NCBI GenBank assembly: GCA_008080735.1
Contig: SHMW01000076.1
Location: 1-20,835, forward strand
Direction of reading: 5' to 3'
Origin: Promethearchaeota archaeon
GTDB taxonomy: Archaea > Asgardarchaeota > Lokiarchaeia > Sigyniarchaeales > SOKP01
DNA length: 20,835 nucleotides
Shown here: positions 3,323-17,767 of the stretch, piece after piece
Numbering within the stretch: position 1 is the first letter of the stretch
Layout: every line of letters starts with the position of its first letter
The notes under the pieces: generated by a model
Databases searched by the model: none
Told to the model about the DNA's origin: nothing
The model's input: only the letters and a program-made list of their open reading frames with translations
Made by a program: the position numbers and the translations under genes

Positions 3323-3736
3323 ATGGACAATTTAAGATTAAAAAGATATAAAAATAAAATTAATTACATCTTGGACAATATGGAGGATCTTCCATTAATT
3401 CCAGAGAATACCTTGGAGAAAAAAGGTATCTTTTATTCTCTCCAGACATCTATTGAATCCACCGTAGATTTGGTTGCTATGTTAGTAAAAGACCTATCTA
3501 TACCCGTAAAAGATGATTATACAAATATAAAAAAGATTATTGATTTAAGAAACATTGACCCTTCATTAGGAGAGAAACTGATAAAAGCCAATGGACTAAG
3601 AAATATTTTAGTAGATAGATATAATTCAATTGAAGACGAAATTATTTTGAATAGTGTTTCAGATATAAAAGATTTATTATATCAATGGTTAGACATAATT
3701 GAGGGATGCTTAATTGAGATTAAAAACGATGAGTAA
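3323..3736 (+). CDS. HepT-like (DUF86) HEPN ribonuclease toxin; catalytic His apparently replaced by Asp
   Basis: 137 aa; LQTSIES..DL and GLRNILVDRY resemble the DUF86 GxRNxLVHxY motif; overlaps a downstream minimal nucleotidyltransferase gene. Confidence 0.88.
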   Translation: MDNLRLKRYKNKINYILDNMEDLPLIPENTLEKKGIFYSLQTSIESTVDLVAMLVKDLSIPVKDDYTNIKKIIDLRNIDPSLGEKLIKANGLRNILVDRYNSIEDEIILNSVSDIKDLLYQWLDIIEGCLIEIKNDE

Positions 3737-4130
3737 AATTAAAAAAGATTTGAGAGAACTTAAAGGGAGATTTGATACAATAATATTTGGGTCTTATTTG
3801 GAAGATGCAATGAGACCAAGTTCGGATATAGATATTGGAATTATTACATACAAATCAAAGATGAATGAGAATATTGAAATTCAAAAGGAATTGCTTGGGA
3901 AGTTCCCCCTCATTTATGATATTAGAGTATTTGAGTTATTCCCAATAGATATCAAAATTCAAATTATAAAAAATTATGAAGTTCTTTTTGGGGATATCTT
4001 AGAAATATCAGAATATTTTTATATATTTAGAAAAAAATGGGATGATATAAAATATCGAATCTTAGAAAATCAATTTTCAAGTTTTCAAGAGAGATTGTCC
4101 CTTATGAAAAAGTATTCGAAATCAGAATGA
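3729..4130 (+). CDS. Minimal nucleotidyltransferase (MNT/MntA-like antitoxin)
   Basis: IFGSYLEDAMRPSSDIDI = GS-x10-DxD. ATG at 3729 overlaps the HEPN gene end by 8 nt and is a more likely start than TTG at 3714. Confidence 0.88.
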   Translation: MSKIKKDLRELKGRFDTIIFGSYLEDAMRPSSDIDIGIITYKSKMNENIEIQKELLGKFPLIYDIRVFELFPIDIKIQIIKNYEVLFGDILEISEYFYIFRKKWDDIKYRILENQFSSFQERLSLMKKYSKSE

Positions 4131-4152: not shown

Positions 4153-6279
4153 TTATTTACCTTCTAATAACTCATCGGCGGTACAAAATCCGGACTCCTT
4201 ATTCGGTTTGGGCTTGATTTTTACCGACGACTTCCGATAAACCTTAGGATCCAACTCTTCAACGAAAAGAGATAGGTCTGCAGTTTGATACCCTCTCCAC
4301 GATTGTAAAAGAGCAGGCGAGATCAAGTAGAGTTGGTCTTTAGCCCGAGTAATTGCGACATAAAATACTCGTCGTTCTTCCTCGATAGCTTCTTGATCTC
4401 CTTTTACCCTACTGGAGGGAAAAAAATTCTGACAGAGCATTGGAATGAACACCGCCCGCCATTCCAAACCTTTTGCTCTATGGATGGTAGAGATCACAAC
4501 AGGCTCCTCTATCTCACTTTTATTTCCTGCTAACACGGTCTTAGATTCGATATTATTTCTGTTCAAGCTCAATGTTTCTAAAAATTGTTGGACGGTTGCA
4601 TAATTTTGGGAATAGATAGCTAATTCTTTCAAATCCTCTAATCGCTCGTCCGAATTTTCATAGGTACTTTTGATATAATCCTTAATCAGTTTATTGATTT
4701 CATTCAAAATTTCTGAAGGATTATCATTCGAAGAGAAATTTCGAAGGGAAGTGATATGATTAAGTAGATTTCTGCTCCCTTTACTGGGTATACGCTCCCC
4801 CTTCATAGTAATACTGAAAAACCCCTTCTCAAACAATTTCTCCAAGGGAGCCTCTGATTGTGAAATTTTAGAAAAGATTTTTGCTCCCGATGTTTTCCCT
4901 AGATCTGGGATCATCTTAAAAATTCTGGACCACGCAATTTCATCAAATGGGTTTTCAATTATTCGTAAATGGACTAATGCGTCCTTTATATGAGCTTTTT
5001 CAAAAAATCCGACTCCCGCTCTCACCACATAAGGAATATTTCTTGCTTGGAGTTCTTGTTCAATTTTTAAAGAATGCCTACCTGCGCGGCACAAAATTGC
5101 AATTTGATTGAGTTTATAACCTTCCTCTCTTAAGCGTAAGATTTGATTCGCAATGAATTTTGCTTGCTCTTCTCCATCTGCTACGTTTACTAAGAAAGGT
5201 TGAGCTCCTGAAGGTCTGGTTGGCTTCATTTCTTTTTGATGTTGGAATTGATTATGTCTTATTGAATCATTTGCGAGGGTTAAAATCTCTGGAACACTCC
5301 GATAATTATAGGTTATCTTATATTTCTTACAATCCTTATACATATCTTCAAAATCTAATATATTTTTAAAATTAGCACCTCGAAAGGCATAAATACTCTG
5401 AGCATCATCCCCAACAACCATTATATTCCTTTCCGGATTCAATCTTGCTATTTTATGAATGATCTCTGCCTGAATATGATTAGTATCCTGATATTCATCC
5501 ACAAGAATATATTTAATCTTTCTTGCAATCATCCGTGCGACAATTTTCTCATCTAATAGACGATTCCAGAACAGCAGTAAATCATCGAAATCAAGTAGCC
5601 CATCTTCTTCTTTTTTCTTTTCATATCTGGTATATGCTTTTTTTAGTTTTTTTTCTATTTTATCATCATCAAAATCGGAATACTTCCAGAGGATTACTTC
5701 TCGTATCGTCTTATCGCAGTTAATGGAATAGGAGAGAATATTTTTTGCCATTTTTGAGGTAGGAAAACGTTCTTCCATCTCTGAGACTCCAACTTTATCC
5801 ATAGCTAATCTCATCAAGGCACGAGCATCCGTCTCATCCATAATATTATAATTAGGCTTTAATCCCAATGTTTGAGAATAACGACGAATAAAACGATTTG
5901 CCATAGAGTGAAATGTACCCGCCCAAATTCCTTTCGGTCTTTTTCCTAATAGAAGTTCCACTCGTTTTATCATCTCTTTGGCAGCTTTATTTGTGAAAGT
6001 GACAAGCATAATTTCGTTCGGATGTACCCCAGAGGTTAGCAATTTAGCAACAGCGTAAGTAATTGTTCGAGTTTTCCCAGAGCCCGCCCCCGCAATTATT
6101 AGCATTGGACCTTTTATATTATTAATGATTTTAAGCTGTTCATCGTTTAAATTTTCTTCAAATTTTACATCATTATATTTGTTTGGCATTGAAGAAGCTT
6201 CTGCTTCGAAATTTTGTTCCATATCTTCATAAAACTCGAATACATACTCTTCCTCTGTGTGATCTTTCCCATTTTTCAT
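4153..6279 (-). CDS. UvrD/PcrA/Rep-family SF1A DNA helicase
   Basis: 708 aa; LNDEQ, AGAGSGKT, TFTNKAA, GTFHS, VDEYQD, VGDDAQSIYAFRGA, NYRS, STIHRAKGLEW, EERRVFYVAITRAK. Confidence 0.96.
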   Translation of the reverse strand: MKNGKDHTEEEYVFEFYEDMEQNFEAEASSMPNKYNDVKFEENLNDEQLKIINNIKGPMLIIAGAGSGKTRTITYAVAKLLTSGVHPNEIMLVTFTNKAAKEMIKRVELLLGKRPKGIWAGTFHSMANRFIRRYSQTLGLKPNYNIMDETDARALMRLAMDKVGVSEMEERFPTSKMAKNILSYSINCDKTIREVILWKYSDFDDDKIEKKLKKAYTRYEKKKEEDGLLDFDDLLLFWNRLLDEKIVARMIARKIKYILVDEYQDTNHIQAEIIHKIARLNPERNIMVVGDDAQSIYAFRGANFKNILDFEDMYKDCKKYKITYNYRSVPEILTLANDSIRHNQFQHQKEMKPTRPSGAQPFLVNVADGEEQAKFIANQILRLREEGYKLNQIAILCRAGRHSLKIEQELQARNIPYVVRAGVGFFEKAHIKDALVHLRIIENPFDEIAWSRIFKMIPDLGKTSGAKIFSKISQSEAPLEKLFEKGFFSITMKGERIPSKGSRNLLNHITSLRNFSSNDNPSEILNEINKLIKDYIKSTYENSDERLEDLKELAIYSQNYATVQQFLETLSLNRNNIESKTVLAGNKSEIEEPVVISTIHRAKGLEWRAVFIPMLCQNFFPSSRVKGDQEAIEEERRVFYVAITRAKDQLYLISPALLQSWRGYQTADLSLFVEELDPKVYRKSSVKIKPKPNKESGFCTADELLEGK

Positions 6280-12501: not shown

Positions 12502-13254
12502 ATGAGTAAAGAAGAGCATGTTTACATTATAATAGATACACGAGAGAATAAATTAATAGAGGTTTTGAAAAAGAAACACGAGATTGTCGATTTAGAGATT
12601 AAACAACTGGATCTAGCCGATATCATCGTCTCCAAGAATGTTGCGATTGAACGGAAAGAAGGGGGAGACTTCGTCGCATCTATTATGGATAATAGACTCT
12701 TTGATCAATTATTGCGATTAAAAGAGACTTATCCGAATCCCGTCCTCATCTTGGAAGGATTAAACAATGAGGTCTTTGAGAATACAGGTATGAATATCAA
12801 ATCAATATATGGCGCACTGGCATTTATTTCATATAAATTAGGGATAGCGGTAATTCCCACCAGACATTTGGAAGATACGGCAATCGTGGTTGAAAGAATT
12901 GCATATAGAGAACAGATTAAGGATGAAATGCCAGTTCTAAGCCGATCTGCTCCAAAAAATATGGATACTTTCGAACGGAGATGTTTTGTATTAGAAGGAT
13001 TATTAGATATTGGACCGACGAAAGCAAAACAATTAATTGAACGATTTGAAACACCATTTAGGGTTTTTGAAGCAATTAAGTTTACGAAGATTCTGTATAC
13101 AAGTACAGGAAATCCGAAAGGCATTCAGGGACCACTGGATACTCTTAGAGGATTTGGTCCGAAATTTGTTAGAAAAAATAAAAAATTGATTTTGGGAAAA
13201 GAGAATGAAATAAAAAAAGACAAGGAAAAATCAATATTAGATGAATATATCTGA
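12502..13254 (+). CDS. xpf: Short-form XPF/ERCC4 structure-specific endonuclease (nuclease + HhH2)
   Basis: IIDTRE, ADIIVSKNVAIERKEGGDFVASIMDNRLFDQ (ERKxxxD), LILEG; HhH motifs LLDIGPTKA and LRGFGPK; no helicase module. Confidence 0.9.
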   Translation: MSKEEHVYIIIDTRENKLIEVLKKKHEIVDLEIKQLDLADIIVSKNVAIERKEGGDFVASIMDNRLFDQLLRLKETYPNPVLILEGLNNEVFENTGMNIKSIYGALAFISYKLGIAVIPTRHLEDTAIVVERIAYREQIKDEMPVLSRSAPKNMDTFERRCFVLEGLLDIGPTKAKQLIERFETPFRVFEAIKFTKILYTSTGNPKGIQGPLDTLRGFGPKFVRKNKKLILGKENEIKKDKEKSILDEYI

Positions 13255-13508: not shown

Positions 13509-14303
13509 TTACATGAGAACGTTCTTAGAAAACGCATCTATAATAACATTACTAAGACATTCATAGAGTTCTTGCTCATAGAGACTACTTAAATGCTCTT
13601 TGTCGAAATTATAGATACTCGTGAGATGGATATCATATTCACAAGGAAAATCTATATTGCTTAGTTTTTGTTCCAACCAAACAATATTGCGATCGACTCG
13701 TTTGGATTTTTCTAAAAGAATTGGGTCTATTTTATGAAATAAAATCGTGATCTTCAAATCCTTGGGAAACAAGTTTTCATATTTTGCGGTAAAAATTTCG
13801 ACCAGATTAGTCAAATATTCCAAAGATTCATTATAGGAAGACTCGTCTGTAATATCAATAAAAAACATAATTTCATCCGTGTGGGCAAAATAATGACATG
13901 AATCGAAATATCTTTTTCTGTACTTCAATGCCCCTCCAAAATCCCAAATACAATACTTATAATTATTATATTCCATTTCTACTCTATTTATATATCTCGT
14001 GGGAATAAGGTTGGTCGATTCGGTTAAGTTTCGTGTTTGGAGAAGCTTTAGCATACTACTTTTCCCAGAATTATGCAAACCCAAAAAAATGAGTTTTCTA
14101 GTTTCGAGGTGCGAATGTGTGGTTATTTTGGAGATCATAATATGATAACATTGACAGCAATATAGCTCAATATGAGGACTTCTCCATACTTGTGTCAGCT
14201 GGTGCTTTGATCTCCCAATATTACTAGAAAAAAATTCATGAAATGATAATGGACGCTGGCATTCCCAGCATGTTCTTTTCTTAAAATTCTCTGAATTTTT
14301 CAC
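13509..14303 (-). CDS. Small GTPase (Rag/Gtr- or Arf-like) with N-terminal Cys-rich Zn-finger-like domain
   Basis: G1 GLHNSGKS, G2 IPT, G3 WDFGGA, G4 FHKID, G5 TSIY; N-terminal CWEC...YCCQC; GTG start. Confidence 0.88.
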   Translation of the reverse strand: MKNSENFKKRTCWECQRPLSFHEFFSSNIGRSKHQLTQVWRSPHIELYCCQCYHIMISKITTHSHLETRKLIFLGLHNSGKSSMLKLLQTRNLTESTNLIPTRYINRVEMEYNNYKYCIWDFGGALKYRKRYFDSCHYFAHTDEIMFFIDITDESSYNESLEYLTNLVEIFTAKYENLFPKDLKITILFHKIDPILLEKSKRVDRNIVWLEQKLSNIDFPCEYDIHLTSIYNFDKEHLSSLYEQELYECLSNVIIDAFSKNVLM

Positions 14304-15880: not shown

Positions 15881-16039
15881 TTTAAATCATCAAATCAAAT
15901 AGTAATTGTTGAAGAAATTTATATTTATTTAGAGTAAATTAATTTAAATTATAAAAGTGATGAATTCAAGACGAATGAAAAAGAATAAAAAAATCAACTT
16001 TTATTATTCTATTAAAGAATTGTTTTGATTCGAATTAAA

Positions 16040-17767
16040 ATGAATATACTAATTATTGCCATTGTAAGTGCGATTGCTCTGATCATCATTATACTATTAC
16101 TAAATAAATACTATTGGAATCGTTCGATCTCGAGAGTCGTGAAGAAATATTTTGCCGACGAGGAAAAGCAAGAGGTGATAGACAAATATAAGGAGATCAG
16201 CAAGATTGTGGAAGAAACGGAGAAGGAAATGGAAAAGTCGATTCAGCAAAAGACGGAACTTGTAAAATCGCAATTTAAAAAAGCGGAAAGAGAACTCATT
16301 AAGAAAGGTACCCAGCAATATACTAAATTCTCGTCAAGCTTACGCTCCGCGATGCCAGAAACGGAGGAGGAACGGAAGCAAGATATCGAGGACCTCAAAG
16401 GTGCAATATCACTCTTAGAATCACTTGATGAAGTGGCGGTAGAAGCCGCAAAAAAGAAAATCGATGTTGGATTAGGAATGTTCTATGATAAGATGTCCAG
16501 AAAGTTCAAAAGAATCATCGATGAGAAGAGTTTGGAACAGTTTGATTTTATTCCAGTACCACGATTAAAATATCACGCATTTCAAGAAATAAAAAACATT
16601 AAAGATGAAGATTTTCTGCCTATTTTGAATATCATGATTGAAACCAATTTACTCAAAGACATTATCGAGATTAATCCAGCACTTCATCTGATCAAATTCA
16701 CTGACGATGAGCTGGAATTAACGCGAACGGAAAAGGTCGTGCTCACGTTCGTCTATGAAGAGGAGAAACTCACCAAAAGAAAATTAGTGGAATTGACAGA
16801 ATGGGATACGAGCTATGCAGATAAAATCCTTGATGAATTATCTGCCAAGGGAATTATTGAACTTAATACTACAATTAACGTTGAGAGTTTCAATCCCCCT
16901 GAGGAAAGAAAAAAATGGAAGCAATTAATCAGGGATATCATCAAGCAAAATCAGCAAAAAGAGGAAGAAAAGTTTCAGAAATCGCTTCTTAGGAGACAAC
17001 AACTCCAAGAAAAATTAGCAAAATCAAAAGAAAAACCGAAAGCATTAGAAATTTCACAGAAAGAGCCCGAACAAAAAGAAATTGATGATGTGCCCGAGGA
17101 AATCAACTTTGGGAAAAAGCCGGATACCAAACCTCTTCCGGGAACAAAAATCGAAGATGAGCCAGAATTTGAAGAAAACATCCAAGACATTAAAGATAAA
17201 GACTCCTTAATAAGCGCAATGGAAGCATTAGATCAAGAGTTAAAAACGTCCAGACAAGAAAATCTAAAGGAGGAAAAGAATGAGGAGGAGGAAATATCCG
17301 ATCTTTCATTGGGTATCGGCGAGATGGGTGATGGTACACAAGATTTGGATGATTTGATCTCTAGTTTTATTCTAAATTATGATGAAAAATACTCTATGGT
17401 AAATGGGGGTTTTGTGCAGTTTGAAAAAATTAACGAATATATTCTTAAAAAAGATGAGCGAATTACCGGAGATATGGTCAGAACAGTCCTAAATGAGCTC
17501 AACTCTCTCCAGATGATTAATAGGATTATAGAAATCGGGGATACCACATTTTATGCTTTCAATAAACTGGAATTGAACGAGGAACAGAAGGATTTCATCC
17601 ATTTTCTCATCGATAAAAAACCAATGTCCAAACAAATGGTTCTTGAAGAACTTGAATGGGATGAGCAGAAAGTCTTACAAACAATGAAATCTCTACAAGA
17701 AAAAAATCTCCTTCGGTTGGAAAATGATAAGATACTGATCCCCGGAGCAAAGCAAAAAGAAGAATAA
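16040..17767 (+). CDS. Single-pass membrane protein with coiled coil and two EAP30 (Vps22/Vps36, ESCRT-II)-like winged-helix tandems
   Basis: N-terminal TM ILIIAIVSAIALIIIILLL. Two internal repeats each with ..IIEI..., LEL(T/N)..(E/Q)K, EL.EW(D)......L..L..K.(I/L); second repeat has the NGG hallmark and first has G.FY. ATG 16040 preferred over TTG 16025. Confidence 0.7.
   Translation: MNILIIAIVSAIALIIIILLLNKYYWNRSISRVVKKYFADEEKQEVIDKYKEISKIVEETEKEMEKSIQQKTELVKSQFKKAERELIKKGTQQYTKFSSSLRSAMPETEEERKQDIEDLKGAISLLESLDEVAVEAAKKKIDVGLGMFYDKMSRKFKRIIDEKSLEQFDFIPVPRLKYHAFQEIKNIKDEDFLPILNIMIETNLLKDIIEINPALHLIKFTDDELELTRTEKVVLTFVYEEEKLTKRKLVELTEWDTSYADKILDELSAKGIIELNTTINVESFNPPEERKKWKQLIRDIIKQNQQKEEEKFQKSLLRRQQLQEKLAKSKEKPKALEISQKEPEQKEIDDVPEEINFGKKPDTKPLPGTKIEDEPEFEENIQDIKDKDSLISAMEALDQELKTSRQENLKEEKNEEEEISDLSLGIGEMGDGTQDLDDLISSFILNYDEKYSMVNGGFVQFEKINEYILKKDERITGDMVRTVLNELNSLQMINRIIEIGDTTFYAFNKLELNEEQKDFIHFLIDKKPMSKQMVLEELEWDEQKVLQTMKSLQEKNLLRLENDKILIPGAKQKEE

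What the first reader, a model, noticed from the sequence alone, without database searches (positions are those of the whole stretch)
4153..4230. UvrD helicase ends in GFCTADEL, a RadA/Rad51 FxxA (BRC-like) motif: candidate Srs2-like anti-recombinase
Seen: after the last helicase motif there is a basic flexible linker (RKSSVKIKPKPNKES) and a terminal GFCTADELL (about 4165-4191), instead of the Tudor-like C-terminal domain of bacterial PcrA/UvrD. Established: Rad51/RadA protomers polymerise through an FxxA motif (GFTTATE in human RAD51), and BRCA2 BRC repeats and RECQL5 mimic this motif. Yeast Srs2 is a UvrD-family helicase that strips Rad51 filaments via a C-terminal region. Inference: this helicase may dock on RadA filaments by molecular mimicry, giving an archaeal recombination-control module that parallels eukaryotic ones. 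A short motif can arise by chance, but the match extends over G-F-x-T-A-x-E at the end of a disordered tail.
Basis: partly seen in the sequence, partly recalled or inferred. Interest (0 to 1): 0.8.

Follow-up and report, generated by a model that had tools for sequence, protein, structure and literature searches.

The report
Archaeal UvrD helicase with RadA-mimic tail
A bacterial-type DNA helicase of a Loki-type Asgard archaeon ends in a short conserved peptide that copies the 'glue' motif by which the recombinase RadA joins its own subunits, so it is probably an undescribed archaeal brake on recombination, although binding is only predicted.

Summary
Observation confirmed. A 708-aa UvrD/PcrA-like helicase (4153-6279, minus) of a Promethearchaeia genome lacks the Tudor domain and ends in FCTADELL (4165-4188). 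F-x-[ST]-A-x-[DE]-L stands in 134 of 136 distinct orthologue tails (shuffles 0.17) behind a variable-length linker; the preceding G is not conserved. It matches the genome's two RadA polymerisation linkers. A second lineage (Micrarchaeia) carries it; no named bacterial homologue does. A predicted complex puts Phe698/Ala701 in RadA's FxxA pockets (score 0.86, best control 0.02; possibly from memory). It is a RadA-linker mimic like RECQL5/FIGNL1, not a BRC repeat; no sign of Srs2 orthology: nearest relatives are bacterial, and it is largely confined to one Loki family. In Micrarchaeia, motif-bearing copies go with MutL and motif-less ones sit beside uvrAB, suggesting filament stripping or heteroduplex rejection with MutSL. 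Odds: RadA binding about 0.75, anti-recombinase about 0.55. No paper found. The scan noted this motif before in other Loki genomes (e1-5589973, e1-5425905); those short notes mention neither Micrarchaeia nor MutL.

The parts
4153..6279 (-). UvrD/PcrA-like superfamily 1A helicase gene, 708 aa, the only UvrD found in this genome
6199..6279 (-). Acidic N-terminal extension (residues 1-27, pLDDT under 50); a Y-x-F-E-F stretch recurs in orthologues
4321..6150 (-). Helicase core (residues 44-653) with motifs I (GSGKT), II (DEYQD), III, IV (NYRS), V (HRAKGLE), VI (EERR..TRA) intact
4222..4320 (-). End of the folded core (residues 654-686), including the conserved F..EL helix and the strand 682-685
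4192..4221 (-). Lys/Ser-rich linker (residues 687-696); length varies by about 20 residues among orthologues, 32% Lys
4165..4188 (-). FxxA motif F698-C-T-A701-D-E-L-L705: candidate mimic of the RadA polymerisation motif; helix 701-706
4153..4155 (-). Stop codon; a convergent HepT/nucleotidyltransferase pair ends 22 bases away (4130)

Best explanation
The tail is a mimic of the RadA polymerisation motif. Phe698 and Ala701 slot into the two pockets on the RadA ATPase core that normally take the FxxA motif of the next subunit, and the following helix lies where RadA's own linker helix lies. This tethers the helicase, on a short flexible linker, to a RadA subunit with a free pocket or lets it compete for the subunit interface. 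The 3'-5' translocating motor then removes RadA from single-stranded DNA or unwinds a strand-exchange intermediate, as UvrD/PcrA do to RecA and Srs2 to Rad51, probably also in heteroduplex rejection with MutS-MutL. Shown: the motif, its conservation, its likeness to the cognate RadA linkers, intact helicase motifs. Predicted: docking. Inferred: binding in the cell, polarity, filament removal, the MutSL link.
For: Conservation: F 134/135, [ST] 135/135, A 132/135, L/I/V/M at +6 135/135, behind a variable linker; kept in paralogues at 43-57% identity. Cognate RadAs read G-F-K-S-A-[E/Q/S/D]-x-[I/V/L]-W in 30 sequences of the family. Second lineage: 9 of 17 complete homologues in Micrarchaeia end in the motif; among 30 high-scoring tails around them F and A are 30/30 and D at +4 28/30, and RadA linkers of four of those genomes read F-E-S-A-D-x-I-[LF]. 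Among 252 more distant homologues only 8 score above 11 bits (next 6.0); the 6 placed in the tree fall in the Loki or DPANN clade. Tolerated variants fit the published peptide data (F and A essential, Pro tolerated at +2, Gly for Ala weak; PMC4855620): one tail has Pro at +2, three have Gly at +3. Complex prediction: score 0.86 against best of 3 controls 0.02 (mark reached by 58 of 80 solved complexes and 2 of 110 mismatched pairs; counts hold only roughly with my alignments); runs agree in at least 69% of contacts; partner pLDDT at least 54; interface = RadA 150-151, 158-163, 175-185, 195, 198, 202 with tail residues 696-705. These include L150, G184, L195, I202, which at an offset of 8 correspond to the RAD51 Phe-pocket residues M158, A192, L203, M210 (offset from my knowledge of RAD51 K133). 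Direction: UvrD and PcrA dismantle RecA filaments (PMC4999840; PMC8865920); MutS-MutL recruit UvrD to unwind recombination intermediates (PMC13470658). MutL was found in 5 of 9 motif-bearing and 0 of 8 motif-less Micrarchaeia genomes, 10 of 301 overall; mutS-mutL lie 0.9 kb from the helicase in one genome, while 4 of 7 motif-less copies lie beside uvrA/uvrB.
Against: No binding or activity measurement. RAD51/RadA complexes with FxxA peptides are solved many times over, so the predicted complex may show likeness only, and no alternative partner (MutL, MCM, RadB) was folded. Under a profile of the tails the two own RadA linkers rank only 337th and 2480th of 1.15 million windows: similar, not a copy. 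radA is adjacent to the helicase in only one genome. Patescibacterial homologues end in a parallel conserved motif (F-L-R-D-I-D-E-L) in cells without archaeal RadA, so the tail may descend from an older docking motif with another partner. FxxA motifs also serve mediators. The co-occurrence counts are among kin and in incomplete genomes.
Confidence: 0.55

Rival explanations
1. The tail binds RadA as above, but the helicase helps recombination: it is recruited to RadA-bound intermediates to extend D-loops, clear the end of a filament for the polymerase, or chaperone RadA monomers.
For: All sequence and model evidence for RadA binding is neutral on direction. Rad52, BRCA2 and SWSAP1 use FxxA to promote filaments. 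Orthologues lie near a Rad50/SMC-like gene in 14 loci and directly behind radA in one genome.
Against: Characterised UvrD-family helicases that act on recombinases dismantle them; a single FxxA without a second anchor or multiple copies is unlike Rad52/BRCA2.
Confidence: 0.2
2. The tail docks the helicase on MutL (or another mismatch-repair factor), replacing contacts lost with the Tudor domain; the likeness to FxxA is incidental.
For: MutL is in 41 of 41 family genomes and co-occurs with the motif clade in Micrarchaeia, once as a neighbour. MutL recruits UvrD in bacteria, and Asgard archaea have MutS/MutL with UvrD homologues (PMC13644597).
Against: No MutL found in 4 of 9 motif-bearing Micrarchaeia genomes (incomplete genomes). 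MutL is in 137 of 201 Asgard genomes, this helicase in 47. The known MutL-binding box needs two aromatic residues after Ser (my knowledge); position -1 here is L, N, F, S, G or D. The near-invariant Ala at +3 fits the small RadA pocket.
Confidence: 0.1
3. The tail binds the replisome (MCM or a partner), like the short C-terminal tail of E. coli Rep that binds DnaB, or folds back on the helicase's own core as a regulatory element.
For: In nine loci of the divergent copies an MCM gene lies directly upstream, overlapping by 11 bases in L044. A few orthologues add a PIP-like box after the motif. The monomer model gives the tail pLDDT 67-73. The parallel patescibacterial motif shows that tails of this subfamily dock on something in bacteria too.
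Against: MCM adjacency is limited to those copies. A fold-back element would not be expected to be lost cleanly in sister clades nor to vary its tether by 20 residues. Comparison of the patescibacterial motif with DnaB and RecA linkers of one such genome was inconclusive.
Confidence: 0.12
4. The motif is a chance or functionless terminus.
For: The pattern is short and occurs 65 times in the proteome.
Against: 134 of 136 tails against 0.17 in shuffles; kept across 43-80% identity and in a second class.
Confidence: 0.02

Closest known systems
Human RECQL5 (BRC variant, F666) and FIGNL1 (FxxA, F295/A298)
   Same: A motor protein carrying one FxxA motif in a flexible region that binds the recombinase and is needed to dismantle filaments.
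   Different: Unrelated motors (RecQ SF2, AAA+); here an SF1A helicase, the motif is terminal and the target is archaeal RadA. Activity here is untested.
Saccharomyces cerevisiae Srs2
   Same: UvrD-family 3'-5' helicase with a C-terminal region that binds the recombinase and, in Srs2, PCNA; a few orthologues here add a PIP-like box.
   Different: Srs2 has a long C-terminal region with Rad51-, PCNA- and SUMO-binding sites; I found no report that it uses FxxA. Here the tail is about 22 residues; nearest relatives are bacterial and the gene is sparse in Asgard archaea.
Bacterial UvrD / PcrA
   Same: Same core and fold (best PDB match Deinococcus UvrD, E 7e-89, TM 0.81); strips RecA and works with MutL and UvrAB.
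   Different: No Tudor-like C-terminal domain; below the equivalog cut-offs (457 bits against 911); carries a recombinase-type motif instead.
BRCA2 BRC repeat / yeast Rad52 FVTA
   Same: FxxA core competing for the same pocket.
   Different: No G-K hairpin or LFDE module, single copy, followed directly by a helix as in RadA's own linker; attached to a motor.
E. coli Rep
   Same: UvrD-family helicase without Tudor domain whose short C-terminal tail docks on a partner (my knowledge).
   Different: Rep binds DnaB, which archaea lack; tail sequence differs.

Membership tests
UvrD/PcrA/Rep (SF1A) helicases | Helicase motifs I-VI intact | tested here: met
UvrD/PcrA/Rep (SF1A) helicases | Four-subdomain UvrD fold | tested here: met
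   model pLDDT 89.9, TM 0.81 to Deinococcus UvrD
UvrD/PcrA/Rep (SF1A) helicases | 3'-5' ATP-dependent translocation | not testable with these tools
   inferred from family
PcrA / UvrD equivalogs | Score above NCBIfam cut-off and C-terminal Tudor-like domain | tested here: not met
   457 of 911 bits, match ends at 649 of 725
RadA/RAD51 FxxA polymerisation-motif mimics (RECQL5, FIGNL1, Rad52 type) | Conserved Phe at 0, Ala at +3, usually Ser/Thr at +2 | tested here: met
RadA/RAD51 FxxA polymerisation-motif mimics (RECQL5, FIGNL1, Rad52 type) | Motif in an accessible, flexible region | tested here: inconclusive
   linker length varies 19-39, but model pLDDT 67-73
RadA/RAD51 FxxA polymerisation-motif mimics (RECQL5, FIGNL1, Rad52 type) | Cognate recombinase with intact Phe and Ala pockets, peptide modelled in them | tested here: met
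   two RadAs above cut-off; predicted complex 0.86 against control 0.02, possibly from memory
RadA/RAD51 FxxA polymerisation-motif mimics (RECQL5, FIGNL1, Rad52 type) | Measured binding lost on Phe/Ala mutation | not testable with these tools
   needs ITC or pull-down
BRC repeat | FxxA followed by the G-K hairpin and a downstream LFDE module (definition from my knowledge; for the extended helix) | tested here: not met
   positions +4 to +7 are x-[DE]-L-L and most chains end within about 20 residues of the Phe
Srs2 | Long C-terminal region with Rad51-, PCNA- and SUMO-binding sites | tested here: not met
   22-residue tail; PIP-like box in only 4 of 136 tails plus L098
Srs2 | Orthology to eukaryotic Srs2 | not tested
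   no Srs2 sequence in the tree; named distant relatives are bacterial or archaeal
Srs2 | Strips recombinase filaments | not testable with these tools
   needs reconstitution

The most novel reading that the evidence does not exclude
Archaea that acquired a bacterial UvrD fitted it, in Lokiarchaeia and in DPANN lineages (possibly twice), with a copy of RadA's polymerisation motif. This would be the first archaeal protein outside the RecA family that regulates RadA filaments by FxxA mimicry, a helicase anti-recombinase coupled to MutS-MutL and convergent with RECQL5 and FIGNL1.
Probability: 0.45. Interest if true: 0.85.

Novelty: new variant of a known kind. Interest (0 to 1): 0.72.

Why it matters
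FxxA mimicry is known from eukaryotic regulators of RAD51 (BRCA2, Rad52, RECQL5, FIGNL1). The two reviews searched name no archaeal helicase that strips RadA; the archaeal anti-recombinase they mention is a RadA paralogue (Sso2452), and mispair removal in archaea with MutS/MutL is described as unstudied. A 10-residue peptide and a 237-residue RadA core make the claim cheap to test. If true, it shows that the RadA pocket was already a regulatory hub in archaea, gives an archaeal model for filament stripping and heteroduplex rejection, and supplies a search motif for further RadA partners. It does not bear directly on the origin of Srs2, since the gene is family-restricted and bacterial in affinity.

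Tried and rejected
Profile of the tails against the PDB: no RadA/RAD51 hit, only a chance-level match to an integrin tail (E 0.15). Proteome scan for further motif carriers: the ten hits examined are unrelated proteins (small GTPases, VWA, JAB, tRNA-binding, polymerase B interior) or unannotated, so no second RadA partner was found. Independent origin in Loki and DPANN: not shown; the AU test does not reject one clade (p 0.133, 59 rows, LG+G4); the larger test did not finish. Idea that the patescibacterial terminal motif mimics a DnaB or RecA linker: inconclusive in one genome. UvrB as partner: not found in five motif-bearing Micrarchaeia genomes and present in 155 of 201 Asgard genomes, mostly without this helicase. 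Assigning P0162, P0305, P0360 to genomes failed; they are placed by the tree only; P0435 and P0438 (motif-like tails) were not placed. Sequencing runs: no RNA holder listed. Promoter/terminator scan uninformative. Literature searches for an archaeal or Asgard UvrD with FxxA found nothing relevant. NCBI labels Hodarchaeota and Odinarchaeota on some hits were not taken as wider distribution: L012 and L039 are the same loci as G064 and G098 of the own family.

Full report
Observation. The stretch 4153-4230 is the 3' end of a 708-codon gene on the minus strand (4153..6279). Its product is a UvrD/PcrA-like helicase: Pfam UvrD domains cover residues 44-653, all six helicase motifs are intact, and the model matches Deinococcus UvrD at TM 0.81. 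The PcrA model matches only to position 649 of 725 and below its cut-off, so the Tudor-like domain is absent. The motif GFCTADELL lies at 4165-4191 as reported. The closest relatives come from Promethearchaeia (Lokiarchaeia) genomes. Two details need correcting: residues 682-685 are a strand of the core, so the linker is about 687-696, and the tail is modelled at pLDDT 67-73 with a helix at 701-706.

Conservation. In 136 distinct orthologue tails, 135 have F-x-[ST]-[AG]: F 134, T 71 or S 64, A 132, D 62 or E 55 at +5, and L 111 or I 19 at +6. Gly at -1 is present in only 10. The Phe lies 19 to 39 residues behind the last core anchor, across a linker that is 32% Lys. The strict pattern is in 134 tails against 0.17 in shuffles; its background in the own proteome is 65 in 1.17 million residues. 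Copies at 43-57% identity keep it. This is a selected linear motif, not chance.

Distribution. The helicase was found in 40 of 41 other genomes of the own family and in 7 of 159 genomes of other Asgard families; the six of those seven that were read lack the motif. Named distant relatives at about 40% identity are mostly bacterial: Patescibacteria, Omnitrophota, Verrucomicrobia, Bradymonadales. Of 252 such proteins, 8 score above 11 bits on a profile of the motif and the next scores 6.0. One lies among archaeal genes, and a search of its class, named Micrarchaeia by cluster members, found 18 of 301 genomes with a homologue; 9 of the 17 complete ones end in the motif. In the tree, motif bearers fall in two well-supported archaeal clades, the Loki family and a DPANN clade. 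Whether these share one origin is open (p-AU 0.133). No named bacterial homologue has the motif, but patescibacterial ones end in a parallel conserved motif, F-L-R-D-I-D-E-L, with a larger residue where archaea have Ala.

The candidate partner. The genome encodes two full RadAs, both above the NCBIfam cut-off; all 19 family genomes searched have at least two. Their linkers read G-F-K-S-A-x-x-[ILV]-W and align with the polymerisation motif of Pyrococcus and Sulfolobus RadA. The tail agrees at positions 0, +2, +3, +6 and +7 and often at +5. In the Micrarchaeia clade both tail and RadA have Ser at +2 and Asp at +4. The likeness has limits: the own RadA linkers rank 337th and 2480th of 1.15 million windows under the tail profile. 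Published peptide work shows Phe and Ala essential, Pro tolerated at +2 and Gly weakly tolerated for Ala (PMC4855620), which fits the variants seen.

Predicted complex. The RadA core without its own motif (residues 90-326) was folded with the last 32 residues of the helicase. Score 0.86, best of three controls 0.02; the mark was reached by 58 of 80 solved complexes and 2 of 110 mismatched pairs, counts that hold only roughly with my alignments. The runs agree in at least 69% of contacts; partner pLDDT is at least 54. The confident interface is tail residues 696-705 on RadA 150-151, 158-163, 175-185, 195, 198 and 202, the surface that holds the Phe and Ala pockets in RAD51 (with an offset of 8 from my own knowledge). 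Many such complexes are solved, so this may show likeness rather than binding, and no rival partner was folded.

Context. radA lies directly upstream of the helicase in one genome only, which could be chance. Divergent copies follow an MCM gene in nine loci, and 14 loci have a Rad50/SMC-like gene nearby. The genome has UvrB and MutL and only this UvrD. Across Asgard archaea UvrB (155 of 201) and MutL (137 of 201) are far commoner than the helicase (47), so it is no obligate part of either pathway. In Micrarchaeia the pattern is sharper: MutL occurs in 10 of 301 genomes, five of them motif bearers and none of the eight motif-less ones; mutS-mutL lie 0.9 kb from the helicase in one genome, and four of seven motif-less copies lie beside uvrA/uvrB; UvrB was not found in five motif bearers. 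These genomes are kin and incomplete, so this is a lead.

Mechanism. Most likely the tail plugs into the FxxA pockets of RadA (about 0.75) and tethers the motor to filaments or competes for the subunit interface. UvrD and PcrA dismantle RecA filaments and Srs2 Rad51 filaments; RECQL5 and FIGNL1 need their FxxA motif to do so; MutS-MutL recruit UvrD to unwind recombination intermediates. An anti-recombinase or heteroduplex-rejection role is therefore the best reading (0.55 overall). Rivals: RadA binding with a pro-recombination role (0.2), since mediators use the same motif; docking on MutL (0.1); docking on the replisome or on the helicase itself (0.12); chance (0.02).

Comparison and novelty. 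It is a member of the UvrD/PcrA/Rep family but not a PcrA or UvrD equivalog, not a BRC repeat, and not shown to be an Srs2 orthologue. It works, if at all, like RECQL5 or FIGNL1 in its docking and like UvrD or Srs2 in its motor. Searches of the paper library found no description of such a tail in archaea; a 2026 review notes Asgard UvrD homologues only as possible mismatch-repair helicases. The scan itself has noted the motif in other Loki genomes and reached the same reading; these are unchecked notes and I did not count them as support. Verdict: new variant of a known kind, interest 0.72.

Noticed in passing
P0459-P0517, P0141, P0174, P0186, P0202; L200-L202: Patescibacterial homologues carry a conserved bipartite tail: an E-P-T-I-V-L-D element and a terminal [SG]-F-L-R-[DNS]-[IV]-[DE]-[DE]-L. 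Partner unknown; the last four residues also occur in the DnaB linker helix of one such genome.
   Followed up: partly
G000:C55:24382-25701 and C72:7701-8681 (L072, L071): Two full-length RadA paralogues in all 19 family genomes searched, often a third divergent one; the C55 copy has a long acidic N-terminal extension with a CxxC..H..H zinc-finger-like start.
   Followed up: partly
P0022, P0050, P0102, L026, L098; P0012, P0029: Some orthologues extend beyond the motif with a PIP-like box (QKTLSxW or similar) and/or a CxxC..CxxC zinc ribbon, an Srs2-like arrangement of recombinase and clamp sites.
   Followed up: partly
L044:1184-7064 and L104-L108, L117-L119: In the divergent copies an MCM gene (with a LAGLIDADG intein in L044) lies directly upstream of the helicase, overlapping it by 11 bases in L044.
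   Followed up: partly
L205:6127-13185 (G228): mutS-mutL divergent from a motif-bearing helicase in a Micrarchaeia genome; MutL is rare in that class (10 of 301).
   Followed up: partly
L086:348-3621 (G064): radA directly upstream of the helicase on the same strand, 139 bases apart.
   Followed up: yes
window 6199-6279 (minus): Acidic N-terminal extension with a recurring Y-x-F-E-F stretch; could be a second docking motif.
   Followed up: no
window 3323-4130 (plus): HepT-like RNase and nucleotidyltransferase pair (HEPN-MNT toxin-antitoxin type), convergent on the helicase.
   Followed up: no
window 12502-13254 (plus): Short Xpf/Hef-type nuclease ending in a PIP-like KSILDEYI; also near the helicase in L001.
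   Followed up: no
L012, L039, L048 and several named proteins: Records labelled Hodarchaeota, Odinarchaeota or Thorarchaeota at NCBI carry typical family-f1 genes; L012 and L039 map to genomes of the own Loki family, so the labels look wrong.
   Followed up: partly
window 16025-17767 and 13509-14303: Membrane-anchored protein without NCBIfam hit and a zinc-finger-fused small GTPase; the scan already noted them as ESCRT-II-like and Rag-like.
   Followed up: no
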